Assembly: GCF_003018115.1 (NCBI RefSeq)
Contig: NZ_CP027457.1
Source of the DNA: Escherichia coli
GTDB lineage: Bacteria; Pseudomonadota; Gammaproteobacteria; Enterobacterales; Enterobacteriaceae
Reading direction: 5' to 3' (one strand)
Length of the DNA stretch: 64,000 nt
Shown here: piece after piece, positions 27,811 to 41,420 of the stretch
Layout of the letters: every line of letters starts with the position of its first letter
Position numbering within the stretch: position 1 is the first letter of the stretch
The notes under the pieces: generated by a model
Database searches by the model: none
What the model was told of the DNA's origin: nothing
What the model saw: only the letters and a program-made list of their open reading frames with translations
Translations under genes and position numbers: made by a program

Positions 27811-30402
27811 ATGCATCAATCTGGTTCTGTTTCTCTTTGTCGTTCCGCAATATCTGTTCTGGTGGCTACAGCGTTATATTCACCCATAGCATTGGCATCA
27901 ACAGTTGAGTATGGTGAGACAGTTGATGGTGTTGTCCTGGAAAAAGATATCCAGCTGGTTTATGGGACCGCCAATAATACGAAAATCAATCCTGGCGGAG
28001 AACAGCATATTAAAGAATTTGGTATAAGTAGTAATACTGAAATTAACGGCGGGTATCAGTACATTGAAATGAATGGCACCGCAGAATACTCCGTATTAAA
28101 TGATGGTTATCAAATTGTTCAAATGGGTGGCGCGGCAAACCAGACTACCCTCAATAATGGTGTGCTACAGGTTTATGGCGCAGCGAATGATCCCACGATT
28201 AAAGGCGGGCGCTTAATTGTTGAAAAAGATGGGATTGCCGTCTTTGCCGCTATCGAAAAGGGAGGATTACTGGAGGTTAAAGACGGGGGATTAGCATTTG
28301 CGGTAGATCAGAAAGCAGGCGGTGCTATTAAAGCAAGCACGCGGGTCATGGAGGTATTCGGAACAAACCGTCTCGGTCAGTTCGAAATCAAGAATGGTAT
28401 TGCTAACAATATGCTGTTGGAAAACGGCGGAAGTTTGCGAGTTGAAGAAAATGACTTCGCTTATAATACTACTGTAGATAGTGGCGGCTTACTGGAGGTT
28501 ATGGATGGCGGGACTGCAACTGGCGTTGATAAAAAAGCAGGCGGAAAATTAATTGTCTCAACGAATGCGCTGGAAGTGAGTGGTACAAACAGTAAAGGCC
28601 AATTTAGTATAAAAGATGGTGTGTCAAAAAATTATGAACTGGATGATGGTTCTGGGCTTATTGTTATGGAGGACACGCAGGCCATTGACACTATCCTCGA
28701 TGAGCATGCCACTATGCAATCGCTGGGAAAGGATACTGGTACGAGAGTGCAGGCAAATGCGGTATATGATCTCGGTCGATCAGATCAGAATGGAAGTATA
28801 ACGTATTCCTCTAAAGCCATCTCTGAAAATATGGTTATCAACAATGGCCGCGCTAATGTCTGGGCTGGCACAATGGTTAACGTTTCAGTCAGAGGGAATG
28901 ATGGCATTCTTGAGGTCATGAAGCCGCAAATAAATTATGCACCCGCTATGTTGGTGGGTAAGGTAGTGGTTTCTGAGGGCGCTTCTTTTAGAACGCATGG
29001 TGCCGTGGATACCAGCAAAGCGGATGTTTCGCTCGAAAATAGCGCATGGACCATCATTGCCGATATCACTACGACGAACCAAAACACCCGCCTTAACTTA
29101 GCCAACCTTGCGATGTCTGGCGCAAATGTGATTATGATGGATGAGCCAGTGACTCGTTCATCTGTGACGGCAAGTGCGGAAAATTTCACTACGTTGACCA
29201 CCAATACCCTGTCGGGAAACGGCAATTTTTATATGCGTACCGATATGGCGAATCATCAGAGCGATCAGCTCAACGTCACCGGTCAGGCAACAGGTGATTT
29301 CAAAATATTCGTGACGGACACCGGTGCCAGCCCGGCAGCAGGAGATAGCCTTACACTGGTAACAACGGGCGGCGGTGATGCTGCATTTACGTTGGGCAAT
29401 GCCGGAGGCGTTGTTGATATCGGTACGTATGAATATACCTTGCTGGATAATGGCAACCATAGCTGGAGTTTGGCAGAGAATCGCGCGCAAATTACCCCTT
29501 CAACCACTGATGTGCTGAATATGGCGGCCGCACAACCGCTGGTATTTGATGCAGAACTGGACACCGTGCGTGAGCGTCTTGGTAGCGTAAAAGGCGTTAG
29601 TTACGATACGGCGATGTGGAGTTCGGCAATTAACACCCGCAACAACGTGACCACTGATGCGGGAGCTGGTTTTGAGCAAACATTGACGGGCCTGACGCTC
29701 GGTATCGATAGCCGTTTCTCCCGTGAAGAAAGCAGTACAATTCGCGGCTTGTTCTTTGGTTACTCTCATTCTGATATTGGTTTTGATCGCGGCGGAAAAG
29801 GTAATATCGATAGCTATACCCTGGGGGCTTATGCCGGTTGGGAGCATCAGAACGGTGCCTATGTTGATGGAGTGCTGAAAGTTGACCGTTTTGCCAACAC
29901 CATCCATGGCAAGATGAGTAATGGGGCAACAGCGTTTGGCGATTACAGTAGTAACGGCGCAGGTGCTCATGTCGAGAGCGGGTTCCGTTGGGTTGACGGA
30001 TTGTGGAGTGTTAGACCCTATCTCGCCTTTACCGGCTTTACCACAGATGGTCAGGACTACACGTTATCAAACGGCATGCGCGCGGATGTGGGAAATACCC
30101 GGATATTACGCGCTGAAGCGGGAACGGCGGTAAGCTATCACATGGACCTGCAAAACGGTACGACGCTGGAACCCTGGCTGAAAGCCGCCGTGCGTCAGGA
30201 ATACGCCGATTCTAACCAGGTGAAAGTTAATGACGATGGCAAATTTAATAATGATGTGGCTGGAACCCGTGGCGTTTATCAGGCTGGGATAAGGTCATCG
30301 TTTACCCCGACGTTAAGCGGTCATTTGTCAGTCAGCTATGGCAATGGCGCAGGGGTAGAATCGCCGTGGAATACCCAGGCTGGTGTGGTCTGGACGTTCT
30401 GA
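27811..30402 (+). CDS. yejO: Autotransporter adhesin-like protein YejO (intact, 863 aa)
   Basis: Signal peptide, repetitive G/N/T-rich passenger, and a C-terminal beta-barrel ending ..AGVVWTF. No IS interruption seen. Confidence 0.85.
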   Translation: MHQSGSVSLCRSAISVLVATALYSPIALASTVEYGETVDGVVLEKDIQLVYGTANNTKINPGGEQHIKEFGISSNTEINGGYQYIEMNGTAEYSVLNDGYQIVQMGGAANQTTLNNGVLQVYGAANDPTIKGGRLIVEKDGIAVFAAIEKGGLLEVKDGGLAFAVDQKAGGAIKASTRVMEVFGTNRLGQFEIKNGIANNMLLENGGSLRVEENDFAYNTTVDSGGLLEVMDGGTATGVDKKAGGKLIVSTNALEVSGTNSKGQFSIKDGVSKNYELDDGSGLIVMEDTQAIDTILDEHATMQSLGKDTGTRVQANAVYDLGRSDQNGSITYSSKAISENMVINNGRANVWAGTMVNVSVRGNDGILEVMKPQINYAPAMLVGKVVVSEGASFRTHGAVDTSKADVSLENSAWTIIADITTTNQNTRLNLANLAMSGANVIMMDEPVTRSSVTASAENFTTLTTNTLSGNGNFYMRTDMANHQSDQLNVTGQATGDFKIFVTDTGASPAAGDSLTLVTTGGGDAAFTLGNAGGVVDIGTYEYTLLDNGNHSWSLAENRAQITPSTTDVLNMAAAQPLVFDAELDTVRERLGSVKGVSYDTAMWSSAINTRNNVTTDAGAGFEQTLTGLTLGIDSRFSREESSTIRGLFFGYSHSDIGFDRGGKGNIDSYTLGAYAGWEHQNGAYVDGVLKVDRFANTIHGKMSNGATAFGDYSSNGAGAHVESGFRWVDGLWSVRPYLAFTGFTTDGQDYTLSNGMRADVGNTRILRAEAGTAVSYHMDLQNGTTLEPWLKAAVRQEYADSNQVKVNDDGKFNNDVAGTRGVYQAGIRSSFTPTLSGHLSVSYGNGAGVESPWNTQAGVVWTF

Positions 30403-30495: not shown

Positions 30496-30517
30496 GGGAT
30501 TTTTGGTCGCACGAGAG
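30496..30517. repeat. Island-distal att repeat (partial copy of tRNA-Pro 3' end)
   Basis: GGGATTTTTGGTCGCACGAGAG versus GGCGATTTGGTCGGCACGAGAG at 41337-41358. Confidence 0.75.
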
Positions 30518-30578
30518 TAGTTTAATTGAACGTGTAACTTAATGATTTAAAAGAATGAGTCTGATTCAACTTTTAAGC

Positions 30579-30602
30579 CGTATAACCAAACGTATAGCTA
30601 AA
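30579..30602. promoter_or_regulatory. Tandem 12-mers CGTATAACCAAA CGTATAGCTAAA (candidate integrase arm-type sites, distal arm)
   Basis: Same motif and orientation as CGTATAACTAAA CGTATAACTAAA at 41189-41212 next to int. Confidence 0.55.
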
Positions 30603-30772
30603 TTTATTTGCTGAAAAAATGTACAATTTAGAGTCAGATTTTCCCAGATGTTTAATTTATAAAACGAAGCTGGCGGCTGTTCTCTGATATGTGGATCCCC
30701 ATATCTGGAACCCTACCGGAATTTTTTTCCGGTTACCCTTTAATCAGGCTGGTGGGCTTTACCTGTTCGGTA

Positions 30773-30795
30773 GGTATGATCATTATGATCATACC
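30773..30795. repeat. Perfect 23-bp palindrome GGTATGATCAT-T-ATGATCATACC
   Basis: 11-bp arms read directly from the sequence. The nearby hairpin ACCGGAA-ttttt-TTCCGGT lies at 30715-30733. Confidence 0.9.
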
Positions 30796-30848
30796 TTTCG
30801 CCCCAATGGGAGGTAAAAGCGCCAACTGGACGGTTAAACCGTCTTTTT

Positions 30849-30883
30849 GTCACATCGTGTCACTGGTTGTCACTCTCCGTCAC
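30849..30883. repeat. Four GTCAC repeats with exact 10-bp phasing
   Basis: GTCACatcgt GTCACtggtt GTCACtctcc GTCAC, starting at 30849, 30859, 30869 and 30879. Preceded by hairpin GACGGTT-a-AACCGTC plus TTTTT. Confidence 0.9.
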
Positions 30884-30910
30884 GATGTCCGCTCGCCTGG
30901 CTGTAAATCA

Positions 30911-31139
30911 AACTACGAAATTTTCGTAGTTGTGAGTAAGCCCCAAAATATGGGGATTACTCTTACTACCCAAACTACGGGTAGTTTCCGTAGTTTCATA
31001 GTCGAGTTGCAGATCTGCAACTCCCCCACCAGCCAGCGCAATTTTGCGCTTTGCTTTAAGTTCAGCGAGTTACAGCGCCGACTTCCTCAAATTGAGGTTG
31101 CCGGAAATATCAACCAGTTACGAGGCTCAAAATTGAGCC
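30911..31139. repeat. Train of seven short palindromes/hairpins in non-coding DNA
   Basis: 30911-31 AACTACGAAAtTTTCGTAGTT; 30941-55 CCCCAaaataTGGGG; 30972-87 AAACTACggGTAGTTT (plus CGTAGTTT at 30989-96); 31004-23 GAGTTGCAGATCTGCAACTC (perfect 20-mer); 31035-50 AGCGCAAttTTGCGCT; 31085-97 CCTCAAaTTGAGG; 31124-39 GGCTCAAaaTTGAGCC. Confidence 0.9.
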
Positions 31140-31156
31140 GCCTTTAAATCAACACG

Positions 31157-31438
31157 TTACCGCCGTAACCGCTCCGGCTTCTTCCAGTTGTACGTAATTT
31201 TCTCTTTCTCCCTGTACATCTCTACACGGCGATTGTAGGCCAGCATTTCAAGAACGCGGATCCGTATGTCGCGCATATCAACGCCATTAAGTTCTATACC
31301 ATCACGGCGCATCACCTCCACCACTACACGCACATAATTATCTGCGGTCATGCTGTCCGGCTGCGTGGCCTGTTCGTCAACCTGCTGGCTGATTCCGGCG
31401 ACGCGGCGGATTAATCCCAGTATTTCGGCTTCTGTCAT
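31157..31438 (-). CDS. Hypothetical island protein (93 aa)
   Basis: ORF with ATG preceded by a G-rich SD-like stretch. Follows repeat copy 1. No recognisable motif. Confidence 0.5.
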   Translation of the reverse strand: MTEAEILGLIRRVAGISQQVDEQATQPDSMTADNYVRVVVEVMRRDGIELNGVDMRDIRIRVLEMLAYNRRVEMYREKEKITYNWKKPERLRR

Positions 31439-31475
31439 TGTGCCCCCATCGCGCTGGTGAAGAAAACAAGCTCAG

Positions 31476-31690
31476 ATTTTTTGTAAAGAATCTGTCACGC
31501 TAAAAGATGTCGAACAAAAAACAACCTTCTTCATCATCTTTTTTACATCAAAGCAATTAAAAACAATCACTTACGAACATGATGATGATGACGATAAAAT
31601 CAAAAAAATGCGTTTTTTTCCGCGCCGCCCGCCCCGTGTTCAGGCCCACCCCACCAGGAGGACCCGCAAAAAAGGCGGCTGGTGCCGCCT
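31476..31690 (-). repeat. Copy 1 of ~215-bp island repeat (terminator + G-rich cos-like core + A/T tracts)
   Basis: Aligns block by block with 34015-34228. Shared blocks: TTTTTGTAAA, GAACAAAAAACAACC, ATAAAATCAAAAAAATGCG, TTTTTCCGCGCC, CCGCCCCGTG, CAGGCCC..CCCCACCAGGAG and the terminator hairpin. Confidence 0.85.
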
Positions 31691-31695
31691 TGTTG

Positions 31696-33585
31696 TCATA
31701 GTGAATCGGTACCGCCTGATTTGACCATACCGCGATAATCCAGAGCTGCCACACCTGCATCAATACGGACTTTCCAGGCCACGCCGTCAACGATAAAACC
31801 TTCCTGCTGTTCAAGGTAAGGCTCGTCATTGCCATCAAGATAAGCCACCTCGATTGTGTCCGTTCCCTGTGCGGAAAGCATGTACCATTGTTTTTCGCTG
31901 ATATCATCAAGGCGGGGATCGACGATGATATCAAGTAGCTTGTGGTACGGGTTAAAGATCCCGCTGTTTTTATCAGCCCCGAAAGGTGCGGTTGAGTTAA
32001 TCATCTGCAACGCGCGATCTTCCAGTGCTGCCGGAACTAAAAGGAATTTAGGCGCAATATTCAGCACTTCGCCATTTTTGTCCTTCTGTGTGCGCATCAG
32101 GTGACGTGCTGCACTAAGTCCCGGTGTTGTCAGTCCTGCTTCAATCAGGTTGCTGTGTTTTTTGTCAAACAGCGTTATTCCGTCAGAAAGTTTTACGTTG
32201 CCTGTAAGCACCAGATTAACCAGATTTCCCACCGTTCTTGATGCTGCACGGCCCATAGCCATTGGCACCGTTGATAACTGATCAAGGTCATCATTGATTA
32301 TCGCCTGGCGGGTAATGCTGAAAATATTCCCGTAAGTAGCCAGCGCGATGGGTTCACCGCGATCGCTGGTGGTGATGTATTTATATTCTGCCCCTTCCGG
32401 CACTTTGTTTAACGTTGAGAAGCCATTCATACCAACGCGGCGGGCTTCCCGGAAGTTTGAAAGGGAACCTTTTTTCGTCCACTGGCGGAATGTTTCGCCG
32501 CTGTGCTCCCAGCCTGCAAGCACTGATTTTTCAGCGCCACCAGCAAGGATATCGGTAAAATCGCTGCTGCTGTGGGTGAATGCCGCGTTTACTATCTGCG
32601 AGCGTGTGCCGTAGCTGCCCGTGCTTATACCACGATGGGTTAATGATGCCTGTGCCATATCGAAAAGGCTCATCATGGCGTAAGGATTACCGCGTTCGGC
32701 CCGTTCGTGACCAAGACGCGCATTAAGCCCCTGACGCATGGCATCGCCGGTTATATTGCCGTTATCCGTGTACGCGTAGTAAAGATTTGCGGGGGTGGTT
32801 TTGTTTGTTGGCGTTGATTCTTTACCCATAGCGAGTAAAAGGCGTTCGCGTGCATTCTCAACGCTACATTCTGAATCCGCAAGACAACTTATAGCCAGGT
32901 CGTTATATCTTCCGTTGAAGGTGCCAAACAATTCACGGATTCCGTTAAGTCGTTCCTGTTCGCCACTGCCAGTTTTCTGGCTGATCATGCTTTTAATTTT
33001 TTCCGGCATATTTGAAAAATCTCCGATTCGTTTTGATTCAATTCGGGCCATTGCTGTAATCGCGGGTATAACCTCATCTGCGAAGCCGTTAGCCTTACAC
33101 TCATTGCCATCCATCCAGGTTTCCGCCTCCATCATTGAGGTGATCTCCTGTTTGCTCCTGCCCGTTCTTCCGGCATAGGTTTCTGCCATCGTGTCGCCCA
33201 GCTTGTCCATCAGATCAGCAAAGCGGCGAACGTCGCCCGACACTCCGGCAGTAACACCACGGGGGGCATGTATCATCATCATCGCGTTTTCAGGCATAAC
33301 GATGTGATCTCCACACATGGCAATAAACGACGCCATAGAAGCCGCCATGCCTTCAATGTGTACGATTTTTTTTGCCGGATGATTTTTCAGGGCGTTATAG
33401 ATAGCCAGCCCTTCAAAGATGTCGCCACCAGGTGAATGAATGCTCAGATGGATTTCAGACGCATTACCACACGCGTTGATCTCGTCAGTAAGTGCCGATG
33501 CTTTTACACCGTACCCGCCGATCTCGTCATAAATGCGCACATAGACAACATCTGCCATAGCCTTAATGGAAAACCATGTTTTCAT
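31696..33585 (-). CDS. ClpP-family prohead protease fused to phage major capsid protein (629 aa)
   Basis: N-terminus: IHSPGGDIFEGLAIYNAL..GMAASMASFIAMCGD..MMMIHAPRG (ClpP/S14-like Ser and His motifs). The C-terminal ~330 aa resembles HK97-fold/Mu gpT-like capsid proteins (..ALATYGNIFSITRQAIINDDL..WYMLSAQGTDTIEVAYLDG..). Assignment is from memory of the family, not from a search. Confidence 0.75.
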   Translation of the reverse strand: MKTWFSIKAMADVVYVRIYDEIGGYGVKASALTDEINACGNASEIHLSIHSPGGDIFEGLAIYNALKNHPAKKIVHIEGMAASMASFIAMCGDHIVMPENAMMMIHAPRGVTAGVSGDVRRFADLMDKLGDTMAETYAGRTGRSKQEITSMMEAETWMDGNECKANGFADEVIPAITAMARIESKRIGDFSNMPEKIKSMISQKTGSGEQERLNGIRELFGTFNGRYNDLAISCLADSECSVENARERLLLAMGKESTPTNKTTPANLYYAYTDNGNITGDAMRQGLNARLGHERAERGNPYAMMSLFDMAQASLTHRGISTGSYGTRSQIVNAAFTHSSSDFTDILAGGAEKSVLAGWEHSGETFRQWTKKGSLSNFREARRVGMNGFSTLNKVPEGAEYKYITTSDRGEPIALATYGNIFSITRQAIINDDLDQLSTVPMAMGRAASRTVGNLVNLVLTGNVKLSDGITLFDKKHSNLIEAGLTTPGLSAARHLMRTQKDKNGEVLNIAPKFLLVPAALEDRALQMINSTAPFGADKNSGIFNPYHKLLDIIVDPRLDDISEKQWYMLSAQGTDTIEVAYLDGNDEPYLEQQEGFIVDGVAWKVRIDAGVAALDYRGMVKSGGTDSL

Positions 33586-33776
33586 AGCCAGGCTCCTAAC
33601 GTTGCCTGGTACCAGTATTCAACCGCGCTGCGTGTGATTTGTCCTTTCGTGGGCACTGGCATACCCGGGTGATTATCTTTGATGAACTGCTGATAGCGTT
33701 CGATCTTCTCCATAGTTCCGGCGTCTATGTGCACAGTGGCACTTTTATCCGGCTTTCTGGTGTTGTTCTCTGGCAT
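33582..33776 (-). CDS. Small protein (64 aa from second Met), possibly ribbon-helix-helix-like, translationally coupled to the capsid fusion
   Basis: GGAGG lies 7 nt before the ATG at 33776 (MPENNTRK..). The stop overlaps the capsid-fusion start (ATGA). The pattern TVHIDAGTMEKIERY..TKGQITRSAVEYWY suggests a beta-alpha-alpha fold. Confidence 0.55.
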   Translation of the reverse strand: MPENNTRKPDKSATVHIDAGTMEKIERYQQFIKDNHPGMPVPTKGQITRSAVEYWYQATLGAWL

Positions 33777-33970
33777 AAATCCGCCTCCGTTTTGATTAAC
33801 GGGCATCATTATTGATCGATAAAAGTAATAGATAAATCATTTTCTACCTGAAAATCAGATTATGTTTTTTCTGATTATCCTCAGAGAGGCAAAGCCATTG
33901 ACGCATTTTTGCTATTGAAGCAATATTAAGACTCGTCATCCTGGCGATAAAAACTCCTTTGTCGTGTAAA

Positions 33971-34008
33971 AGCGCCTCCGGTAACAGCAATCGGGGGCGC
34001 TTTTTTTT
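33971..34008. terminator. Strong hairpin flanked by A8/T8 in the leader of the capsid operon (bidirectional terminator-like)
   Basis: GCGCCTCCG-11 nt-CGGGGGCGC (9 bp, one G.T) followed by TTTTTTTT on the plus strand. On the minus strand the same stem is followed by TTTTAC. Confidence 0.6.
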
Positions 34009-34014
34009 GCGCCT

Positions 34015-34228
34015 GTTTTTTGTAAATGTTTTCGGGAACGTTCCAGTGATGAACAAAAAACAACCCGATTCGACACTAAAAATTTTTATTCCTCAATATA
34101 TCAATAGCTTATAGTGGTGGTGATGGTGCCATAAAAATCAAAAAATGCGCCTTTTTCCGCGCCCCTCCGCCCCGTGGACAGGCCCCCCCCACCAGGAGTA
34201 CCTACAAAAAAGCCGGATTGCTCCGGCT
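34015..34228 (-). repeat. Copy 2 of ~215-bp island repeat
   Basis: See copy 1. The terminator AGCCGGA-ttgc-TCCGGCT plus a T-run (minus strand) lies immediately after the PerC-like gene. Confidence 0.85.
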
Positions 34229-34234
34229 GTGTGA

Positions 34235-34507
34235 TTAGCTGTCTTGGTAATTACACCATATTTCATCGCTTACACCATCTATACCCATTTCAGCATAAGT
34301 GCGATCTACTGCCTTTCTCAGGTCTCCGAAGTTATCCGGCGGCTCCGGTGGCCTCTGTGCCTTCCTGGAACATTCCAGCCGTCGCATCGTAACCTGATGC
34401 CGTTCCTTGTCTGTCTCCACCAGCTGCATGACTTCACCCCATCGCGCCGCCGCCCTCCGGTAAAATCCTTTCGCCTCGAGTTCCTCCGCTATGCGGTCAT
34501 GTATCAT
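34235..34507 (-). CDS. PerC-family-like transcriptional regulator (90 aa)
   Basis: The N-terminal pattern IAEELEAKGFYRRAAARWGEVM resembles the AE.LE..G..RRAA.RW signature I recall for PerC/Pch proteins. Confidence 0.5.
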   Translation of the reverse strand: MIHDRIAEELEAKGFYRRAAARWGEVMQLVETDKERHQVTMRRLECSRKAQRPPEPPDNFGDLRKAVDRTYAEMGIDGVSDEIWCNYQDS

Positions 34508-34772
34508 CGCCTGACTCTCCGGTTTTTACGTTGATGGTTGTTACCTGTTCCGCTTCGGCAATCTCCCGTTCTGTCAACGTGGCAAAGTTTGCCGCCGCTG
34601 TGGTCATGAATGCGCTTATCAGTTCGGGATGCTCCTTCGCGTATCCTTCCCCCGCGTGGCGGTCTATTACCCTGATTGCCACCTTTAAGGCGTGCTCTGT
34701 CATGTCTAACGCTTTATATTTCGGCTCTGTTCTGTCTCTGCGCATTTTGGTTATCTCCTCACTCATGCTCAC
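34497..34772 (-). CDS. Hypothetical island protein (91 aa, GTG start)
   Basis: ORF overlaps the downstream gene by 11 nt. Part of the tightly packed operon. Confidence 0.5.
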   Translation of the reverse strand: MSMSEEITKMRRDRTEPKYKALDMTEHALKVAIRVIDRHAGEGYAKEHPELISAFMTTAAANFATLTEREIAEAEQVTTINVKTGESGDDT

Positions 34773-34958
34773 TTTTACACCTCACTTTTTAAAGCGTCTC
34801 GCTTCGTCTCACTTGATATTTTTTGATGCTTTATGTGTGTGTTTCATAAGGATTTTTTTACTCCTCACTTTTGAGCATGTATACAGGTGAGAAAGTGAGT
34901 AATCGTGTTAATATTTTGTAAAAACCTCACCATTACTCACTTTTGCTACTCACTTTTT
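34758..34958. repeat. Iteron cluster (CTCACTTTT family) flanking an AT-rich core: candidate island replication origin
   Basis: CTCACT(T) copies at 34758, 34768, 34781, 34808, 34864, 34936 and 34949; CTCACC at 34926; inverted GGTGAG/AAAGTGAG at 34886-34899. The AT-rich stretch is 34815-34862. Lies immediately 3' of the replication ATPase gene. Confidence 0.6.
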
Positions 34959-36366
34959 ACAGTGGTCCTACATCATCACCATCAATGTAAATCACGGCGT
35001 CTTTTTCCAGTTTGGCTAACCATCGCCGCATATTTTTCACGTCATACCCAAGCCGTTTCATGTCATCACGTAACAGCGGGATCGTGCACTTGTCGCCGTT
35101 CTGTGTGCGTGAACGGATGCACCCCCATAGTGCGGTATGGTTTTCCGTCTTGTTGCCTGCCTCCTCGATGCGTTCCAGTTCAACGGGAGGGCGCGGCTTA
35201 TCCACCACCACCAGCGACGTGATTAACTCCCCGTCAGCGTCGGTAAACAGCTCCACCACGCGTAAGTCATATGCGGCTTCTTTGAGTTCCTCCGCGTCCT
35301 TCATTTTGGTGCATGAGATAACCAGCGCTTCGCTTCCTGCGTCCTCCCTGCGTATCCGGTATTCAGCATCCAGTGATGCACGAAATGCACTGGAACCGCG
35401 CGCGCCTTTCGTCTCATCCTTGCCGGAATGGTGAACCACCAGCACCGTGGCCCCTGTGCGTCGTTTCAGTTCGTCACAACCACGGATAAACGCCCCCATA
35501 TCACGGGAATCATTTTCATCATTCCCACCAAAGCAACGCGCCAGCGTATCCAGAATAATCATGCGTACAGGTTTACCCGTTTCCCGCTCCACCTGACGGG
35601 CAGCGATAACCATTTCATCAACATCAAGCGGGACCGCCGGAAAGATGGGACGGTTTACCAGATACAGATTTTTCACCTGCTCACCGTGCACAACCTCCCA
35701 GGCTTTTACACGACGCGGAACGCCGATACCGCCTTCACCAACCACATAGAGAACAGCGCCATGCGCCACCCTGCGGCCTCCCCACTGGCGGCCCGTGGAA
35801 ACGTGACACGCCCACGATCCGGCAAGGAATGATTTATAGGAACCGCTCGCCCCGTATATGCTGCAAAGCGACGATGCCGGAATAATCCCCTTTACCACGT
35901 AATCAAGCTGTGTGTCGTATCCGGTAGATCCAACGCTCATCGGTAGCGTGGTTTTTCGCTGGGGGATTTTTTTCATGACCAGGCTTTCCCCGCGTTCCCA
36001 TGCCTCCCTAAGCCGTGGAAGCTGGTCGCTCCATTCCTCCAGCAATTCGAAATTTTCAGAAAGTAGCCGCGCCTCCTGGACTCCGGCGATCGCCAGTTTC
36101 GTGGCGATGGTTAACAGCTGCGGCTCTTCAATATTTCCGGCGCGTATCACCGTCGCCCTGTATCGCCCATCATCAACAATCTGGAGGTTATCCAGTTTGC
36201 TTAACTGATAACGCCCCAGATAAACGGGAGGGACTGGATCGCCTGCTTTTTTGGCCTGTGCAATGATGTAATGCTCTGCGAATGAGTGAGCATCAATACC
36301 CGCAAAAATAATCGCATCGGTGTATTTATCTTTCGGTAATCGTTTTACGTTCGGTGCCAGTTTCAT
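34957..36366 (-). CDS. Replication ATPase, RepA/AAA_25 (RecA-like helicase) family, 469 aa
   Basis: Walker A GASGSYKS, Walker B RMIILDT and VVHHSGKD motif, typical of RepA-like helicases of plasmids and satellites. N-terminal ~140 aa unassigned. No zinc-finger or Toprim primase motifs seen. Confidence 0.7.
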   Translation of the reverse strand: MKLAPNVKRLPKDKYTDAIIFAGIDAHSFAEHYIIAQAKKAGDPVPPVYLGRYQLSKLDNLQIVDDGRYRATVIRAGNIEEPQLLTIATKLAIAGVQEARLLSENFELLEEWSDQLPRLREAWERGESLVMKKIPQRKTTLPMSVGSTGYDTQLDYVVKGIIPASSLCSIYGASGSYKSFLAGSWACHVSTGRQWGGRRVAHGAVLYVVGEGGIGVPRRVKAWEVVHGEQVKNLYLVNRPIFPAVPLDVDEMVIAARQVERETGKPVRMIILDTLARCFGGNDENDSRDMGAFIRGCDELKRRTGATVLVVHHSGKDETKGARGSSAFRASLDAEYRIRREDAGSEALVISCTKMKDAEELKEAAYDLRVVELFTDADGELITSLVVVDKPRPPVELERIEEAGNKTENHTALWGCIRSRTQNGDKCTIPLLRDDMKRLGYDVKNMRRWLAKLEKDAVIYIDGDDVGPL

Positions 36367-36662
36367 TTTTTACCCCTGAATCCGTTAATCATGGTTTTCA
36401 GCTTCTGGATGTTTGCCCGTGCCCTGGCGTTGCTGGTGGGCACGTTATGCGGCGCGGTCTGTACCAGAGAAAAATCACGCCGGAACTGATAAACAGGCAT
36501 CACGCAATCATATTCGTAACCTTCACGGCGGTAAGTTACGCACCGTCCCGCCACGCCCTTAATCATTACCGTGCCGCCGTACTGGTCGCGGTAAATATCA
36601 CCGCGCGTAAATTTAGGGTGAGTGTTGCCACTGGCAGTTAAGCCAGAATATTTAAGTTTCAT
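36363..36662 (-). CDS. Small protein, DUF4222-like (99 aa)
   Basis: The pattern YRDQYGGTVMIKGVAGRCVTYRREGYEYDCVMP resembles remembered DUF4222 proteins found upstream of satellite replication genes. ATGA overlap with the ATPase gene. Confidence 0.45.
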   Translation of the reverse strand: MKLKYSGLTASGNTHPKFTRGDIYRDQYGGTVMIKGVAGRCVTYRREGYEYDCVMPVYQFRRDFSLVQTAPHNVPTSNARARANIQKLKTMINGFRGKK

Positions 36663-36667
36663 TATTT

Positions 36668-36901
36668 TTATTCTCCGGTGTGCTGTTCGTTATATCTGTC
36701 GTGCAATGTCTCTATTTCCTGCAACTCATTTATTACAGGCTCAAGAAGCGTTATTAATGCCGTGGCAATTCTTGATTTTTGTTTGTCGCGTTCATTGTCG
36801 CCAAGTGTTTCAAGCCATATGCGCAATATTTCCATCATATTTTCACTGTGAGAAAGTGCAAGAAATACGCGATCTGTTGTTTCGTGGTAAATATCACGCA
36901 T
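36668..36901 (-). CDS. Hypothetical small helical protein (77 aa)
   Basis: ORF packed 1 nt after the upstream stop. Confidence 0.5.
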   Translation of the reverse strand: MRDIYHETTDRVFLALSHSENMMEILRIWLETLGDNERDKQKSRIATALITLLEPVINELQEIETLHDRYNEQHTGE

Positions 36902-36902
36902 A

Positions 36903-37124
36903 TTAATTACCGTCCGTTGTTTTTCTTAAAACAGCTTCTGTCACGAAATCGGCATAGTTAGCGGCAATATCAAGAATATTTAGCCCTGTATCTCTGTGCT
37001 CATCAGTGCAAAGAAAGAAAAAAGCCACCCGCATAATTTCAGATATTGACGAAAGCGCATCAGCCGCATCATCAGGAACGCCGGAAAATTCTTGTTTCAG
37101 GGAATAAAAACGATCATCACGCAT
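36903..37124 (-). CDS. Hypothetical small protein (73 aa from MRDDRFY)
   Basis: The ATG at 37124 overlaps the upstream stop (ATGCGTGA) and is preceded by a GGGGGGG SD-like run. Confidence 0.5.
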   Translation of the reverse strand: MRDDRFYSLKQEFSGVPDDAADALSSISEIMRVAFFFLCTDEHRDTGLNILDIAANYADFVTEAVLRKTTDGN

Positions 37125-37356
37125 AACCCCCCCCATTTTCACAATCAGTAATCAGGATGGTTTTAGCCTCATTCAGTGCCATATCAGCACTAAATTGCAT
37201 AACAGCCAGTGAGTGAGGAACGAAAGCCCCGGTATATTCTGTTTCGCTGGTGGCGTGCTTATGTGCCCTGTCCGCGATAACAGAAATATCAATCAGCGCG
37301 TGCATCAGCGTTTTGATGGCTTCGGCGGCTGCGTCCGGTGTGGTTTTATTGTGCAT
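37117..37356 (-). CDS. Hypothetical small protein (79 aa)
   Basis: ORF overlaps the upstream ORF by 11 nt. Confidence 0.5.
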   Translation of the reverse strand: MHNKTTPDAAAEAIKTLMHALIDISVIADRAHKHATSETEYTGAFVPHSLAVMQFSADMALNEAKTILITDCENGGGYA

Positions 37357-37675
37357 AAAGCATCCCCTGAATATTCGTGTTAATCATTCCGGCACGTTTT
37401 GTGATTTCCTGTAATGATTCCCTTGTGGCGACAATTGCTTCATCTGGTAAGTGGTAATTACACACCACGCGACCTTTATCCACATTGACCAGTAGCTGCC
37501 CTGTGAATTTCTCACGAAACTGAATGCGGTTAAGGTCAGTAAGTGACAGATTAATAATGGCGCACCTCCTGACGAATACGGGCGGCAAATACAGCAACAC
37601 AACCGGACGGGCAACGGTTACGCGCTTCGCGTTCCGTCCAGGCGGTGACGTGGATGATTTGAGATTCTCCGGCAC
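37346..37675 (-). CDS. Hypothetical protein, start uncertain (109 aa from GTG 37675; ~71 aa if initiated at ATT 37558 after AGGAGG)
   Basis: Long open frame overlapping the icd-like ORF out of frame. A strong AGGAGG (37570-37565) has no canonical start codon at proper spacing, only ATT. Confidence 0.4.
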   Translation of the reverse strand: MPENLKSSTSPPGRNAKRVTVARPVVLLYLPPVFVRRCAIINLSLTDLNRIQFREKFTGQLLVNVDKGRVVCNYHLPDEAIVATRESLQEITKRAGMINTNIQGMLYAQ

Positions 37676-37748
37676 TCAGGGCCAGAAAACGCCACACAAA
37701 GGCAGTTTGTGTGTGTACAAGGTGTGGTATATGATTTACGGCAACCAT
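37551..37748 (-). CDS. Small protein (65 aa), tentatively Icd-like (host cell division inhibitor family)
   Basis: GAGGAG SD 5 nt before the ATG. First gene of the leftward operon. The pattern FVWRFLALS..IIHVTAWTEREARNR..VFAARIRQEV resembles my recollection of Icd-like proteins of P4-like elements. Unverified. Confidence 0.5.
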   Translation of the reverse strand: MVAVNHIPHLVHTQTAFVWRFLALSAGESQIIHVTAWTEREARNRCPSGCVAVFAARIRQEVRHY

Positions 37749-37812
37749 AACGGCTCCTCGTTTACGTTGTTGGTTAGAAGCCCCGTTACTGCTCCTACAG
37801 TGCGGGGTTTCG
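37742..37812 (+). ncRNA. Candidate small RNA A (cis-antisense to the RBS/start of the icd-like gene)
   Basis: Promoter-like TTGTGT (37707-12) -17 bp- TATGAT (37730-35). Hairpin GCCCCG-17 nt-CGGGG (37780-37807) followed by TTTCGTCGTTTC. A homologous unit lies at 38453-38565. Confidence 0.35.
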
Positions 37813-37837
37813 TCGTTTCAACACCTTGCCTAAATAA

Positions 37838-37891
37838 GGTGTTGAACACCAATTTAAATCGAGGTGTTAAACACGTCAAGTGTTGAACACT
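37838..37891. promoter_or_regulatory. Three palindromic operators (GGTGTTGAACACC family) overlapping divergent promoter-like hexamers
   Basis: 37838-50 GGTGTTgAACACC (perfect); 37863-75 GGTGTTaAACACG; 37879-91 AGTGTTgAACACT (perfect). Minus strand: TTGACG (37879-74) -17- TAAATT (37856-51). Plus strand: TTGAAC (37883-88) -17- CATACT. Confidence 0.6.
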
Positions 37892-37940
37892 TATTTTTTT
37901 TCCTGCATACTGCATTTGTTTTTTATGAGGGGTGCTCAAC

Positions 37941-38120: not shown

Positions 38121-38177
38121 TCACTATCAGCGCCGTGGTGTGAGGTACTACGGCGCATTGCTTTACAGGGCAGTATC

Positions 38178-38405: not shown

Positions 38406-38487
38406 GTGCACAAAACCGAACTATGAAACGGATTATTCCGTTTCCGGGGCGTTTGTGTGTGTATAAAGAGTAAGCTATGCTCTTTTA

Positions 38488-38565: not shown

Positions 38566-38583
38566 GTATAACGGTAAGTACAA

Positions 38584-38798: not shown

Positions 38799-38855
38799 AA
38801 AACATCAGCGCCGTGGCGTGAGGAACTCCGGCGCATTGCTTTACAGGTACACACA

Positions 38856-39156: not shown

Positions 39157-39180
39157 TGTTCATCATTTGCCCTATATATG

Positions 39181-39387
39181 TTAAGCGGTCGTTCCGCGCG
39201 CTTCTTGTTCGCGTTCTTTCATCCATGCGATTACGTCTTCCTCATACCATCCGCGACGGCGCAAACCGACACGAAAACCCTGCGGGAATTCTCCGGCGTT
39301 GATCATGCTTTGCAGCGTGCTGTCTGCCTTAATGTGGATAAGTTTTTTTACTTCCTGGCGAAAGATGACTTTTTTGATTGCTTCCAT
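39181..39387 (-). CDS. AlpA-family phage regulatory protein / excisionase-like (68 aa)
   Basis: The pattern ..LIHIKADSTLQSMINAGEFPQGFRVGLRRRGWYEEDVIAWM.. matches the MerR-like wHTH AlpA/Xis family signature (R.v.W...dV..W). Confidence 0.8.
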   Translation of the reverse strand: MEAIKKVIFRQEVKKLIHIKADSTLQSMINAGEFPQGFRVGLRRRGWYEEDVIAWMKEREQEARGTTA

Positions 39388-39883: not shown

Positions 39884-41125
39884 CTAAACGGCTCGGATAC
39901 CCCTTTTACCACTGGCGAGGGTTACGCCCGTCGCCGCAGCCTCGACAAATTCGCCCCACCAGCGCATAAGCACGATGCGTTTTTCTATGTAGTTGCTCCG
40001 GTTGTATGCCCGTCTGACTTCGTTGGTGTCGACGTGGGCAAGTGCGGCCTCTATTACGTCCGGCTCAAAGCCTTCTTCGTTCGCTGCTGTGCTGAATATG
40101 GCGCGTAATCCATGAGACACCAGCACGCCAGCGAATCCCATGCGTCGTAATGCTGCGTTAGCGGTCTGGCTGTTCATCGGCTGCTGTGGGTCTTTCAGAC
40201 TCGGGAAAACATAATCGCGGTGGTGGCTGATTGGTTTCATAGCCTCCAGCACTGCCATAGCCTGGTCACAAAGCGGGATAACGTGGTCGCGGCGCATCTT
40301 CATGCGTCCGGCGGGTATGGTCCAGCGTTGCGCTTCCATGTCGATTTCTTCCCAGCGTGCCGACGATGCTTCAACGGGACGGGTTACGGTCAGTAACTGC
40401 CATTCAATCAGTAATCTGGTCTGCCGTTCTGTTGCCGATACTGATAAAGCCTGCATAAGCTCCGGCAGCTGTTCGGGGCGGATTGTTGGCATATGTTTTT
40501 TTACAGGGGAGGGGAACGCCTTACGCACATTCATAGCCGGATTGGCATCAATCATCCCACTATTGGCGGCGTAATCCATTACCTCATTTATACGCTGTAA
40601 AACTCGCTTGAGCGTTTCCAGGTTGCCACGTTCCTTGATGGGGGTAAGCACCTCAACGAACCTGCGAGCGGTCAGGGTGTCTATTGGCGTGTTGCCGATG
40701 AACGGGAATACATATTTTTCCAGCGATCGCCAGATGTCTTTAATCGTATTGGGGGCCAGATTCTGGCTGATTTTCACCTGGTACCATGCTGTTGCCACAT
40801 TTTCGAACGTGTTCCCTTGTCTTCGGGCCTCTGTCTCTCTTTTTTGCCTCTCGTGGTCCTGCGGGTCAGTTCCGGCACGAATTAACGCCCTGTACTCGCT
40901 ACGGCGTTTTCTGGCATCAGCCAGGGAAACATCATCAAGCGATCCAAAACTCAGCAATATTCTTTTTTTGTCCGATGGTCGGTAGTAGGAAAATCTCCAG
41001 AGTTTTGATCCGGACGGTTTGATCAGGAGAAAAAGCCCTCCGCCGTCCTGTAGGGTGTATTCCTTTTCTGCTGGTCTGGCTGCTTTGATCTGTACTGTGG
41101 TTAATGGGGGTGTTTTTCTCGCCAT
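39884..41125 (-). CDS. Tyrosine integrase, P4-type (413 aa)
   Basis: N-terminal DUF4102-like arm-binding region (LTTVQIKAARPAEKEYTLQDGGGLFLLIKPSGSKLWRF). C-terminal catalytic motifs (HGLRAIFST..AHVDTNEVRRAYNRSNY). Adjacent to the tRNA. Confidence 0.92.
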   Translation of the reverse strand: MARKTPPLTTVQIKAARPAEKEYTLQDGGGLFLLIKPSGSKLWRFSYYRPSDKKRILLSFGSLDDVSLADARKRRSEYRALIRAGTDPQDHERQKRETEARRQGNTFENVATAWYQVKISQNLAPNTIKDIWRSLEKYVFPFIGNTPIDTLTARRFVEVLTPIKERGNLETLKRVLQRINEVMDYAANSGMIDANPAMNVRKAFPSPVKKHMPTIRPEQLPELMQALSVSATERQTRLLIEWQLLTVTRPVEASSARWEEIDMEAQRWTIPAGRMKMRRDHVIPLCDQAMAVLEAMKPISHHRDYVFPSLKDPQQPMNSQTANAALRRMGFAGVLVSHGLRAIFSTAANEEGFEPDVIEAALAHVDTNEVRRAYNRSNYIEKRIVLMRWWGEFVEAAATGVTLASGKRGIRAV

Positions 41126-41336: not shown

Positions 41337-41358
41337 GGCGATTTGGTCGGCACGAGAG
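41337..41358. repeat. tRNA-proximal att repeat
   Basis: GGCGATTTGGTCGGCACGAGAG. Pairs with 30496-30517. Confidence 0.75.
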
Positions 41359-41420
41359 GATTTGAACCTCCGACCCCCGACACCCCATGACGGTGCGCTA
41401 CCAGGCTGCGCTACGTGCCG
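41344..41420 (-). tRNA. proL: tRNA-Pro (anticodon GGG)
   Basis: Reverse complement is CGGCACGTAGCGCAGCCTGGTAGCGCACCGTCATGGGGTGTCGGGGGTCGGAGGTTCAAATCCTCTCGTGCCGACCA (77 nt, encoded CCA, T-loop GGTTCAAATCC, U-GGG-G anticodon loop). Confidence 0.93.

What the first reader, a model, noticed from the sequence alone, without database searches (positions are those of the whole stretch)
31696..33585. Single 629-aa ORF fusing a ClpP-type prohead protease, a linker and a major capsid protein; the only structural gene of the island
Seen: the N-terminal ~175 aa carry ClpP/S14-like motifs (IHSPGGDIFEG, GMAASMASFIAMCGD, MMMIHAPRG). Residues ~180-300 form a charged, low-complexity linker. The C-terminal ~330 aa read like an HK97-fold (Mu gpT-like) capsid protein. 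Established: prohead protease, scaffold and capsid are normally separate or nested genes, and they sit beside portal and terminase genes. Inference: a self-processing protease-scaffold-capsid polyprotein could let a satellite assemble its own, perhaps smaller, shell on a helper portal.
Basis: partly seen in the sequence, partly recalled or inferred. Interest (0 to 1): 0.7.

Follow-up and report, generated by a model that had tools for sequence, protein, structure and literature searches.

The report
Phage satellite's own fused capsid gene
The ORF is a known Gifsy-2-type fused protease-scaffold-capsid gene, sitting as the only virion gene of a small E. coli phage satellite; that arrangement has been noted before, but what the gene does for the satellite is still unknown.

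Summary
The 629-aa ORF is real, on the minus strand (31696-33585). It has a ClpP-like protease domain (Pfam 3e-33), a roughly 110-aa middle domain and a Mu gpT-like capsid domain (Pfam 1e-54; profile hits to solved capsid chains).

It is not a new architecture. It scores 888 bits (cutoff 475) on NCBIfam NF045540, [quoted passage not shown]. The exact protein is already in public databases. The fused gene was studied in Salmonella phage Gifsy-2 (Effantin 2010), whose copy is 49.7% identical.

The context claim holds. The gene sits in a roughly 10.8-kb PICI-type satellite at tRNA-Pro with integrase, AlpA-like, RepA helicase and PerC genes, and no portal, terminase or tail genes. Lone capsid genes in Gram-negative PICIs are already documented; their function is unknown.

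New here:
- Satellite copies form their own clade (200/200 bootstraps; about 50% identical to phage copies) across six genera.
- They are under purifying selection (dN/dS 0.05-0.15).
- They lack about 35 aa of the phage linker.
- They are translationally coupled to a satellite-only small ORF.
- They are flanked by two helper-type cos sites.

Near-identical modules sit embedded in lambdoid prophages that carry the same gene type. A role in building satellite capsids is plausible but untested.

The parts
31696..33585 (-). Tripartite capsid gene: 629 aa, ClpP-like prohead protease, scaffold-like middle domain, major capsid protein
   Evidence: ORF. NCBIfam NF045540 scores 887.7 bits against a cutoff of 475. 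PHROG 133 scores 929 bits. Pfam domains. The identical protein is in public databases under that name (P0001).
33061..33585 (-). Protease domain, aa 1-175, with Ser83, His106 and Glu155 (Glu155 sits at the ClpP Asp position)
   Evidence: Pfam CLP_protease 3e-33. Aligns to solved ClpP chains at E=4e-15. AF2 pLDDT is mostly 65-92 in this domain only. The motifs are conserved in all satellite and phage copies.
32731..33060 (-). Middle (scaffold-like) domain, aa 176-285. It is about 35 aa shorter than in phage versions.
   Evidence: Alignment of 7 satellite and 7 phage copies: every satellite lacks the Pro/Ala-rich plus 'DENAIRxQV' stretch between aa 206 and 207. It is not low-complexity.
31699..32730 (-). 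Capsid domain, aa 286-629 (Mu gpT-like, HK97 class). It includes the satellite-specific block at aa 271-370.
   Evidence: Pfam PF25209 1e-54 and PF10124 7e-9. PDB profile hits 8rkc, 8rkx and 9jod. In sliding windows starting between aa 271 and 331, identity is 75-80% among satellites but 44-55% to phages.
33582..33809 (-). Satellite-specific small ORF (75 aa, phrog_4934), overlapping the capsid gene start by ATGA
   Evidence: PHROG 4934 at 6e-51. Present with the same 4-nt overlap in all 11 satellite loci and absent from the phage loci. dN/dS 0.05-0.15. No Pfam hit.
34046..34228 (-). cos-like site A, just after the PerC stop and a terminator hairpin. Its cosB-side flank is phage-like; its core is mutated in this window.
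   Evidence: Direct repeat D1/D11 and its alignment. The same sequence lies about 160 nt upstream of the TerS-like gene of lambdoid prophages L004 and L002. The 100-nt right flank is 91% identical to the phage.
31508..31690 (-). cos-like site B, just after the capsid gene stop and a GC hairpin followed by a T run. About 53 nt around the core (left side and cosN) match the phage exactly; the right flank is diverged.
   Evidence: The core GGGCGGCGCGGA matches the LLS/mEp213 cohesive end GGGCGGCGCGCT at 10 of 12 positions (PMC12315714).
31157..31438 (-). 93-aa ORF (phrog_1561) downstream of cos B, function unknown
   Evidence: PHROG 1561 at 5e-56. Conserved in satellites L001, L002 and L003. In L003 it follows a TerS-like DUF1441 gene.
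34235..34507 (-). PerC-family transcriptional activator
   Evidence: Pfam PerC 1e-43.
34957..36366 (-). RepA-type helicase (replication module)
   Evidence: Pfam AAA_25 1e-43. PHROG 2850 plus primase/helicase families. PGAP names it 'helicase RepA family protein' in L001.
36363..36662 (-). DUF4222 protein
   Evidence: Pfam 2e-23.
39181..39387 (-). AlpA-like HTH / excisionase-type regulator
   Evidence: Weak Pfam Phage_AlpA and HTH_17 hits. PHROG 66 and 2790, 'excisionase and transcriptional regulator'.
39884..41125 (-). Tyrosine integrase (P4-type domain set)
   Evidence: Pfam Arm-DNA-bind_3, Phage_int_M and Phage_integrase.
41342..41420 (-). tRNA-Pro(GGG), with the att core TTTGGTCGGCACGAGAG at its 3' end
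   Evidence: ARAGORN, Rfam, sequence.
30502..30517 (.). Candidate distal att repeat TTTGGTCGCACGAGAG, giving an island of about 30518-41341 (10.8 kb)
   Evidence: Sequence read. It matches 16 of the 17 nt of the tRNA-end core, with one G missing. The boundary is inferred, not tested against an empty site.

Best explanation
SHOWN. The ORF is a Gifsy-2-type tripartite capsid gene. It combines a ClpP-like prohead protease, a scaffold-like middle domain and a Mu gpT-like (HK97-class) major capsid protein.

It is the only recognisable virion gene of a roughly 10.8-kb Gram-negative PICI-type phage satellite. The satellite is integrated at tRNA-Pro(GGG), between yejM and yejO, in an E. coli chromosome.

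The satellite carries two copies of the cos site of lambdoid prophages whose own head gene is of the same fused type. Near-identical satellite late modules are found embedded inside such prophages. Those phages are therefore the likely helpers.

The satellite copy is not a recent pick-up or a decaying remnant. It belongs to a satellite-only clade, is under purifying selection, and keeps the catalytic Ser/His/acid positions.

INFERRED. During helper induction the protein is made together with the translationally coupled small ORF. It assembles shells on the helper's portal, alone or mixed with helper capsid protein, and digests its own protease and scaffold part as in Gifsy-2. Helper terminase then fills the shell from the satellite cos sites, and helper connectors and tails complete the particle.

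The shortened linker and the satellite-specific scaffold/capsid junction (aa 271-370) are the obvious candidates for making these shells private to the satellite, or smaller. I rate 'takes part in building the particles that carry the satellite' at about 0.55. I rate the sub-claim 'smaller capsids' at about 0.3.
For: - Identity. The exact protein is in databases under the fusion name. It is 49.7% identical over 99% of its length to the Gifsy-2 gene (H94). Gifsy-2's protease and coat genes are fused (PMC12315714, citing Effantin 2010).
- Satellite context: int, AlpA-like, RepA helicase and PerC genes, with no portal, terminase or tail genes. This matches the four-zone GN-PICI layout, with a 'Late zone' holding a capsid gene (PMC10111431).
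- Helper link: about 53 nt of cos sequence are identical to the sequence upstream of the TerS-like gene of lambdoid prophages. The same late module (98.2-99.5% nucleotide identity to the window gene; the L002 protein is identical to L001's, WP_000860398.1) sits embedded in the TerL gene of prophages that carry portal plus a 659-aa fusion gene. In Kluyvera (L006) and Rahnella (L073), satellites lie just downstream of a prophage portal gene; in L006 the helper's own fusion gene is visibly interrupted.
- Function retained: satellite copies form a clade in 200/200 NJ bootstraps. The clade spans Escherichia, Kluyvera, Yersinia, Buttiauxella, Moellerella and Rahnella. dN/dS is 0.05-0.15 for unsaturated pairs, and all 12 copies are intact. 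The top 60 E. coli genomes all show full-length, single-piece matches.
- Satellite-specific features: a 30-40 aa linker deletion; a block at aa 271-370 that is conserved among satellites but diverged from phages; and a coupled small ORF that only satellites have.
- Mosaic pattern: the cos A flank is 91-93% identical to phage, while the capsid gene is only about 65% identical at nucleotide level. This fits selection to match the helper terminase while the capsid gene evolves on its own.
- Precedent: SaPIbov5 Ccm, a capsid-protein homologue in a cos satellite, redirects assembly to small capsids (summarised in bioRxiv 10.1101/2022.09.08.507074).
Against: - No experiment bears on this gene in a satellite.
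- In EcCICFT073, deleting the lone capsid gene (lambda E family, not this one) did not restore normal lambda plaque formation. [quoted passage not shown] - Satellite size (about 10-11 kb) fits a small capsid. It fits equally well four copies in a roughly 45-kb helper head.
- No sigma-70-like promoter was found upstream of the module, so how it is expressed is unknown.
- 24 of the 60 best-matching genomes carry no second fusion-type gene, so the helper is often not resident.
- The capsid domain could not be modelled with confidence. The structural meaning of the satellite-specific changes is therefore inferred from the usual N-to-C order of HK97-fold elements (my own knowledge).
Confidence: 0.55

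Rival explanations
1. Interference only. The satellite protein mixes into helper procapsids as a poison subunit, or its protease acts on helper scaffold or capsid protein. This lowers helper yield, but the protein is not needed to make satellite-carrying particles.
For: PICIs generally interfere with helper assembly (PMC6092414, PMC6739421). The protein is about 50% identical to the helper's, close enough for co-assembly. The junction and N-terminal capsid block is the most diverged part relative to phages. The protease motifs are intact.
Against: A poison role alone does not obviously require keeping all three domains under purifying selection across six genera. In EcCICFT073, deleting the capsid gene did not relieve interference (PMC6092414), although that is a different capsid family. 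Nothing here separates this reading from the main one computationally.
Confidence: 0.2
2. A passenger. The gene is a captured helper late gene with no present function for the satellite: a relic of late-gene capture, or just a stretch between two cos sites.
For: PICI 'Late zones' are described as dynamic and filled by capture from helper prophages. PICI capsid genes are reported as not required for transfer (PMC10111431). Other parts of this particular island show decay: a split phrog_2512 gene and a rearranged Bro zone.
Against: dN/dS is 0.05-0.15 and all 12 copies are intact. The satellite clade has 200/200 bootstrap support across six genera. No sequenced phage is more than 52% identical, so this is not a recent capture. 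Satellite-wide shared indels and a coupled satellite-only ORF are present.
Confidence: 0.08
3. The element is not a satellite but the stump of a degraded lambdoid prophage that happens to retain its capsid gene.
For: It contains phage-derived cos sequence and a phage-type capsid gene. It lies next to a tRNA, as many prophages do.
Against: The same int / AlpA / (Bro) / replication / late layout recurs at about 10-11 kb at different integration sites with different integrases and replication modules. That includes sites inside intact prophages. The capsid gene clade is satellite-specific. There are no lysis, tail, portal or terminase remnants.
Confidence: 0.04
4. An assembly or sequencing frameshift artificially joined a protease gene and a capsid gene.
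For: None found.
Against: The identical or near-identical full-length ORF occurs in 140 complete E. coli genomes and on 61 contigs for the exact protein. The same architecture is seen in about 50 loci from many genera. Curated full-length HMMs of 652 and 668 positions match from end to end.
Confidence: 0.01

Closest known systems
[quoted passage not shown] 2010, Virology 402:355) and its lambdoid relatives (mEp460, mEp043/213, cdtI, VT1-Sakai, CP-1639, Stx2 phages, LESphi3); NCBIfam NF045540
   Same: The domain order is the same: ClpP-like protease, middle domain, Mu gpT-like capsid. Identity is 48-52% over 99% of the length. The Ser/His/acid motifs are conserved. The score is above the family cutoff.
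   Different: In phages the gene follows TerS-TerL-W-portal and precedes DUF2190 and tail genes. Here it stands alone in a satellite, preceded by a satellite-only small ORF. The satellite version lacks about 35 aa of the linker, has its own conserved junction and N-terminal capsid block, and forms a separate clade.
Gram-negative PICIs with a lone capsid gene (EcCICFT073 and relatives: Fillol-Salom 2018, PMC6092414; Mageeney et al. 2023, PMC10111431)
   Same: The int, alpA, replication and late-zone layout. Size about 10-20 kb. Two cos sites resembling the helper's. Lambdoid cos helpers. A capsid gene as the commonest late gene. Helper-embedded variants.
   Different: EcCICFT073 carries a lambda E-type capsid gene plus a decoration gene and an Rpp protein. 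This island has the fused protease-scaffold-capsid type and no Rpp or TerS homologue. PICIs 'bearing a CLP_protease gene' are mentioned in PMC10111431 only as integration targets at tRNA-Ile2. The satellite-specific clade, the linker deletion and the coupled small ORF are not described there, as far as I could find.
SaPIbov5 Ccm (a capsid-protein homologue in a cos-packaged staphylococcal satellite)
   Same: A satellite-encoded homologue of the helper's HK97-fold capsid protein, in a satellite that is packaged through helper-type cos sites. This is the functional analogy for size redirection (10.1101/2022.09.08.507074).
   Different: It is a different family and host, and I did not test sequence similarity. 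To my knowledge Ccm is not fused to a protease.
cf-PICIs (capsid-forming PICIs, e.g. EcCIEDL933)
   Same: A PICI that encodes its own capsid protein and maturation protease and depends on helper tails.
   Different: cf-PICIs also encode portal, head-tail connectors, HNH, TerS and TerL (10.1101/2022.09.08.507074). None of these is present here. If this island makes its own shells, it would be an intermediate that still needs the helper's portal and terminase.

Membership tests
NCBIfam NF045540 (scaf_prot_MCP1: ClpP-like prohead protease / major capsid protein fusion) | Whole-protein score at or above the curated cutoff (475 bits) | tested here: met
   887.7 bits; the best stretch covers aa 203-624 against model positions 231-651 of 652, and a second stretch covers the N-terminal part.
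Gifsy-2-type tripartite capsid gene | N-terminal ClpP-like protease domain with catalytic Ser and His | tested here: met
   Pfam CLP_protease 3e-33. Ser83 and His106 are conserved in all copies, and Glu155 sits at the ClpP Asp position. Catalytic activity itself was not tested.
Gifsy-2-type tripartite capsid gene | Central non-protease, non-capsid domain between the two | tested here: met
   Present at aa 176-285, conserved and helical, but about 35 aa shorter than in phage copies.
Gifsy-2-type tripartite capsid gene | C-terminal HK97-fold major capsid protein | tested here: met
   Met by homology: Pfam PF25209 1e-54 and PF10124 7e-9, and a profile hit to solved Mu GpT-domain capsid chains at E about 1e-10. 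A direct fold comparison failed because the AF2 capsid-domain pLDDT was below 35.
Gifsy-2-type tripartite capsid gene | Location in a phage head module next to portal and terminase | tested here: not met
   No portal, TerL, TerS or W homologue is present in the window. This is the satellite variant of the gene.
Gifsy-2-type tripartite capsid gene | Self-processing to a mature C-terminal capsid protein that forms a capsid | not testable with these tools
   Needs expression, mass spectrometry and EM.
Gram-negative PICI (phage-inducible chromosomal island) | Integrase plus AlpA-type regulator at one end; a unidirectional integration / (Bro) / replication / late layout; size about 10-20 kb | tested here: met
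   int 39884-41125, AlpA-like 39181-39387, RepA helicase 34957-36366 and the late module 31157-33809 are all on the minus strand. The island is about 10.8 kb. The layout is as described in PMC10111431.
Gram-negative PICI (phage-inducible chromosomal island) | No lysis, tail or full head-packaging genes | tested here: met
Gram-negative PICI (phage-inducible chromosomal island) | A packaging signal matching a helper (cos or own TerS) | tested here: met
   Two cos-like sites. About 53 nt around the core are identical to lambdoid prophage cos. Function was not tested.
Gram-negative PICI (phage-inducible chromosomal island) | Helper-induced excision, replication and high-frequency transfer; interference with the helper | not testable with these tools
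   Only circumstantial evidence: helper-embedded copies in L002, L082, L083, L006 and L073.
cf-PICI | Own portal, head-tail connectors and terminase (HNH, TerS, TerL) | tested here: not met
   None found by Pfam, PHROGs or tblastn.
P4-like satellite | Sid/Psu/Delta capsid-size and transactivation genes and an alpha-type primase | tested here: not met
   No such hits for any island ORF. Only a P4-type integrase domain set and AlpA-like and Icd-like genes are shared.

The most novel reading that the evidence does not exclude
This satellite lineage is a minimal 'capsid-forming' PICI. A single tripartite gene, helped by the coupled small ORF, is enough to build the satellite's own, probably smaller, shells on a stolen helper portal. 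The shortened scaffold linker and the altered scaffold/capsid junction set the size, or prevent mixing with helper capsid protein. That would place it as an evolutionary intermediate between classical PICIs, which steal whole capsids, and cf-PICIs, which steal only tails. It would also give a function to the widespread lone capsid genes of Gram-negative PICIs.
Probability: 0.3. Interest if true: 0.65.

Novelty: new member of a known kind. Interest (0 to 1): 0.35.

Why it matters
The fusion itself and the presence of lone capsid genes in Gram-negative PICIs are both known, so the finding as written is largely ordinary.

What remains open in the field is why most Gram-negative PICIs keep a capsid gene at all. 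In the one model tested, deleting it did not restore normal helper plaque formation, and such genes are reported as not required for transfer.

This lineage is a good test case, for four reasons:
- One gene supplies protease, scaffold and shell.
- The satellite copies are a distinct, selected clade with a diagnostic linker deletion.
- They carry a private, translationally coupled partner ORF.
- Natural helper-satellite pairs are available in sequenced strains, for example E. coli 2014C-3097 and 57_142493.

If the gene does build satellite-private or small capsids, it would show how little a satellite needs in order to own its capsid. It would also link classical PICIs to cf-PICIs.

Tried and rejected
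3. I looked for an Rpp- or TerS-like packaging redirector. There is no DUF1441/TerS homologue in this island. The TerS-like DUF1441 protein of the related satellite L003 has no sequence match to any solved structure, Rpp included.
4. I tested whether the small flanking ORFs derive from portal, TerL, TerS, W or DUF2190. No similarity was found.
5. Rfam scan of the island: only the tRNA was found.
6. Sigma-70 promoter scan upstream of the capsid module: nothing on the gene strand.
7. Literature search for PICI + satellite + Clp protease + capsid gave 0 papers. The Gifsy-2 paper itself is not held in the library, so what I say about it rests on its title and on how PMC12315714 and PMC8538268 cite it.
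8. Co-occurrence of the satellite gene with a second fusion-type gene in the same genome: 36 of the top 60 genomes, against about 40% of all genomes carrying any such gene. Many of the single-copy genomes are clonal, so I draw no conclusion.
9. The 496-aa ORF at 37736-39226 (minus strand) has no family hit and an odd composition. I treated it as spurious.
Full report
**1. The observation**

The window holds an uninterrupted ATG-to-stop ORF of 629 aa at 31696-33585, on the minus strand.

Domain evidence:
- Pfam finds CLP_protease at aa 41-173 (E=3e-33), Phage_capsid_4 (PF25209) at aa 331-623 (E=1e-54), and a partial Mu-like gpT match (E=7e-9).
- The N-terminal domain aligns to solved ClpP chains at E=4e-15. 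The ClpP Ser and His are matched by Ser83 and His106, and the ClpP Asp position is occupied by Glu155 in a conserved E-T-W motif.
- A profile built from 34 diverse C-terminal domains hits solved capsid chains named 'Bacteriophage Mu GpT domain-containing protein' (8rkc, 8rkx) and 'Major capsid protein' (9jod), at E about 1e-10.

The C-terminal half is an HK97-class (Mu gpT-like) capsid protein. The fusion is not a frameshift artefact, because the same architecture is present in 12 satellite copies and about 40 phage copies.

One detail is wrong. The middle region is not low-complexity or notably charged. It is a conserved, mostly helical domain.

**2. The fusion is a known family**

- The protein scores 887.7 bits on NCBIfam NF045540, 'ClpP-like prohead protease/major capsid protein fusion protein' (cutoff 475). 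It scores 929 bits on PHROG 133.
- The identical sequence is already in public databases under that name, on 61 contigs.
- DNA matches to the gene family occur in 2145 of 5426 complete E. coli genomes, all annotated with that product name. Of these, 140 are at least 95% identical to this copy.
- In the phage collection, 80 records hold a full-length homologue, always at 52% identity or less. They include Stx2 phages, CP-1639, VT1-Sakai, mEp460, cdtI, mEp043/213, Gifsy-2 (49.7%) and Pseudomonas LESphi3.
- The fused gene was characterised in Gifsy-2 (Effantin et al. [quoted passage not shown] I could not read that paper. [quoted passage not shown] PMC8538268 cites Gifsy-2 as a capsid with a trimeric decoration protein.

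**3. The surroundings**

The window is E. coli chromosome, with ccm genes, narP, yejO, yejM, yejL and yejK. A tRNA-Pro(GGG) lies at 41344-41420.

From the tRNA's 3' end leftwards, all on the minus strand, lie:
- a tyrosine integrase;
- an AlpA-like regulator;
- a rearranged 'Bro zone';
- Icd-like and small unknown ORFs;
- a DUF4222 protein;
- a RepA-type helicase;
- a phrog_1231 ORF;
- PerC;
- a 75-aa ORF;
- the tripartite gene;
- a 93-aa ORF.

The att core TTTGGTCGGCACGAGAG at the tRNA end recurs, with one G missing, at 30502-30517. This gives an island of about 10.8 kb. The boundary is inferred.

No portal, terminase, connector, tail or lysis gene is present by Pfam, PHROGs or tblastn with phage proteins. 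The 'only structural gene' statement is therefore correct.

The layout is the four-zone organisation of Gram-negative PICIs. In these, a capsid gene is the commonest late gene (21 of 29 reference PICIs), and PICIs 'bearing a CLP_protease gene' are mentioned (PMC10111431).

**4. Who the helper is**

A direct repeat of about 230 nt, spaced 2538 bp apart, brackets the small ORF and the capsid gene. Each copy starts right after a terminator-like hairpin.

Its core is GCGGGTCCTCCTGGTGGGGTGGGCCTGAACACGGGGCGGGCGGCGCGGAAAAA. This is identical to the sequence about 160 nt upstream of the TerS-like (DUF1441) gene of lambdoid prophages that have TerL-W-portal-fusion head modules (L004, L002). It contains GGGCGGCGCGGA, which matches the cohesive end reported for LLS/mEp213 (GGGCGGCGCGCT) at 10 of 12 positions (PMC12315714).

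The two copies differ in how phage-like they are:
- The copy after PerC keeps 91-93% identity to the phage's cosB-side flank, but its core is mutated in this window.
- The copy after the capsid gene has the exact phage core, but a diverged right flank (68%) of the kind also seen at cos B of the other satellite lineage (L003).

EcCICFT073 likewise has two functional cos sites (PMC6092414).

Three genomes carry the same late module (98.2-99.5% nucleotide identity to the window gene) in a satellite with a different integrase. In all three, the satellite is embedded in the TerL gene of a lambdoid prophage that has its own 659-aa fusion gene next to portal.

In Kluyvera (L006) and Rahnella (L073), related satellites lie just downstream of a prophage portal gene. 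In L006 the helper's own fusion gene is visibly interrupted at the protease domain. [quoted passage not shown]

**5. The satellite copy is a distinct, selected lineage (new here)**

In 77 loci fetched from species-representative genomes plus the E. coli loci, the contexts split cleanly:
- Copies at least 57% identical to ours are always in a satellite context. A primase or RepA gene lies upstream, no portal is adjacent, and a small ORF lies immediately upstream.
- Almost all copies 43-52% identical sit in phage head modules (TerS-TerL-W-portal-fusion-DUF2190), with a portal gene immediately upstream. The one exception is L041, where no portal was found upstream.

Supporting measurements:
- The ten satellite copies in the tree form one clade in 200 of 200 NJ bootstraps. 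That clade is sister to the Enterobacterales phage copies. It spans Escherichia, Kluyvera, Yersinia, Buttiauxella, Moellerella and Rahnella.
- dN/dS between unsaturated satellite pairs is 0.05-0.15, and all 12 copies are intact.
- All satellite copies lack a 30-40 aa stretch of the phage linker (Pro/Ala-rich plus 'DENAIRxQV').
- In sliding windows starting between aa 271 and 331, identity is 75-80% among satellites but only 44-55% to phages. Phage copies are 71-77% identical to each other in the overlapping 'capsid N part' region, aa 286-365.
- By its position, this block spans the end of the middle domain and the N-terminal part of the capsid domain. That it contains the maturation site and N-arm is my inference.
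- The upstream small ORF (phrog_4934) overlaps the capsid start codon by ATGA in all 11 satellite loci. Its dN/dS is 0.05-0.15. It has no counterpart in the phage loci and no Pfam family.

**6. How it most likely works**

Shown: the gene's identity, the satellite context, the helper-type cos sites, the physical association with lambdoid prophages of the same head type, and long-term retention under selection.

Inferred: on helper induction the satellite excises and replicates. The capsid module is then expressed. How is unknown, since no sigma-70-like promoter was found. The polyprotein assembles on the helper portal, alone or together with helper capsid protein, and removes its own protease and scaffold part as in Gifsy-2. 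Helper terminase packages satellite DNA from its cos sites, and helper connectors and tails finish the particle.

The shortened linker and the private junction block could set a smaller shell, or could keep satellite and helper subunits apart. The functional analogy is SaPIbov5 Ccm (10.1101/2022.09.08.507074).

Against this:
- In EcCICFT073, deleting the lone capsid gene (a different family) did not restore normal lambda plaque formation.
- Such PICI capsid genes are reported as not required for helper-assisted transfer.
- The DNA was packaged at phage size (PMC6092414; PMC10111431).
- A 10.8-kb genome fits four-per-head packaging as well as it fits a small head.

Rival readings, with my confidences: interference only (0.2), functionless passenger (0.08), prophage stump (0.04), artefact (0.01).

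**7. Comparison and novelty**

The gene is a member of NF045540 and of the Gifsy-2-type tripartite capsid genes. The exception is location: it is not in a head module.

The element meets every sequence-testable feature of a Gram-negative PICI. It is not a cf-PICI (no portal, connectors or terminase) and not P4-like (no Sid, Psu or Delta). I therefore file it as a new member of a known kind.

The satellite idea is reasonable but unproven.

The residual interest lies in the satellite-specific clade, its linker deletion, the coupled small ORF and the two-cos bracket. Together these make the old question 'what are lone PICI capsid genes for?' directly testable in this lineage.

**8. Limits**

No fold search was run, and the HK97 assignment rests on profile homology.
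- The trees are NJ on one alignment.
- The island boundary and the function of the cos sites are inferred from sequence only.

Noticed in passing
window 34046-34228 and 31508-31690 (minus strand): Two cos-like sites, 2538 bp apart, bracket the small ORF and the capsid gene. The copy after PerC keeps the phage cosB-side flank (91%), but its core is mutated in this window (GGGGGGGGCCTGTCC...GGAGGGGCGCGG). The copy after the capsid gene has the exact phage core and a satellite-type right flank. Which copy is cut, and why the capsid module sits between them, is unexplained.
   Followed up: partly
window 33582-33809 (minus strand): A 75-aa ORF (phrog_4934) is translationally coupled (ATGA) to the capsid gene. 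It is conserved in all 11 satellite loci (dN/dS 0.05-0.15) and absent from phage loci. PGAP does not annotate it in L001, L002 or L082. By eye, its conserved core (VHID..T...I..Y......HP..P.PTKGQI.R..V..W) looks like a ribbon-helix-helix DNA binder. It sits where the phage has TerS-to-portal. Its function is unknown.
   Followed up: partly
window 31157-31438 (minus strand); L003 12387-12668: A 93-aa ORF (phrog_1561) lies just downstream of the second cos site. It is conserved in E. coli satellites of two lineages. In L003 it follows a TerS-like DUF1441 gene that this island lacks. It shows no similarity to TerL, portal or other helper proteins.
   Followed up: partly
L002 1750-11795; L082 and L083, same layout: Near-identical late modules (capsid gene 98.2-99.5% identical at nucleotide level to the window's) sit in satellites with a different integrase. 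Two of the three also have a different replication module (primase plus SSB instead of RepA plus PerC). All three are embedded in the TerL gene of lambdoid prophages. The late module is thus shuffled among satellite backbones.
   Followed up: partly
L006 3700-14500 (Kluyvera); L073 (Rahnella): Satellites carrying their own tripartite capsid gene lie just downstream of a prophage portal gene. In L006 the helper's tripartite gene is interrupted at the protease 'MMIH' site, and the remaining fragment starts MGCMMIHKPWG. While integrated, the satellite therefore breaks the very gene it carries a copy of.
   Followed up: partly
window 37700-39230: The 'Bro zone' differs from the closest relative (L001). 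A 496-aa minus-strand ORF with odd composition and no family hit is probably spurious. A 75-nt repeat (38114-38188 and 38792-38866, 80% identical, 678 bp apart) marks a duplication. The region carries small plus-strand ORFs (phrog_949, YlcI/YnfO-like, at 37932-38120; phrog_21027 at 38856-39059).
   Followed up: no
window 36903-37356 (minus strand): Two overlapping 79-aa ORFs match the two halves of phrog_2512 (154 positions). L001 has a single 154-aa gene here. This island therefore seems to carry a frameshift in that gene, a sign of some decay even though the capsid gene is intact.
   Followed up: no
window 27811-30402 (plus strand): The yejO autotransporter ORF is intact here (863 aa), whereas PGAP flags it as a pseudogene with an internal stop in the closest genome (L001).
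   Followed up: no
window 31696-33585, aa 504-560: In this stretch the window-type protein resembles phage copies more than other satellite copies. It lacks the 8-14 aa insertion (SSSLFPIG...) that every other satellite lineage has. This hints at a past recombination within the capsid domain.
   Followed up: no
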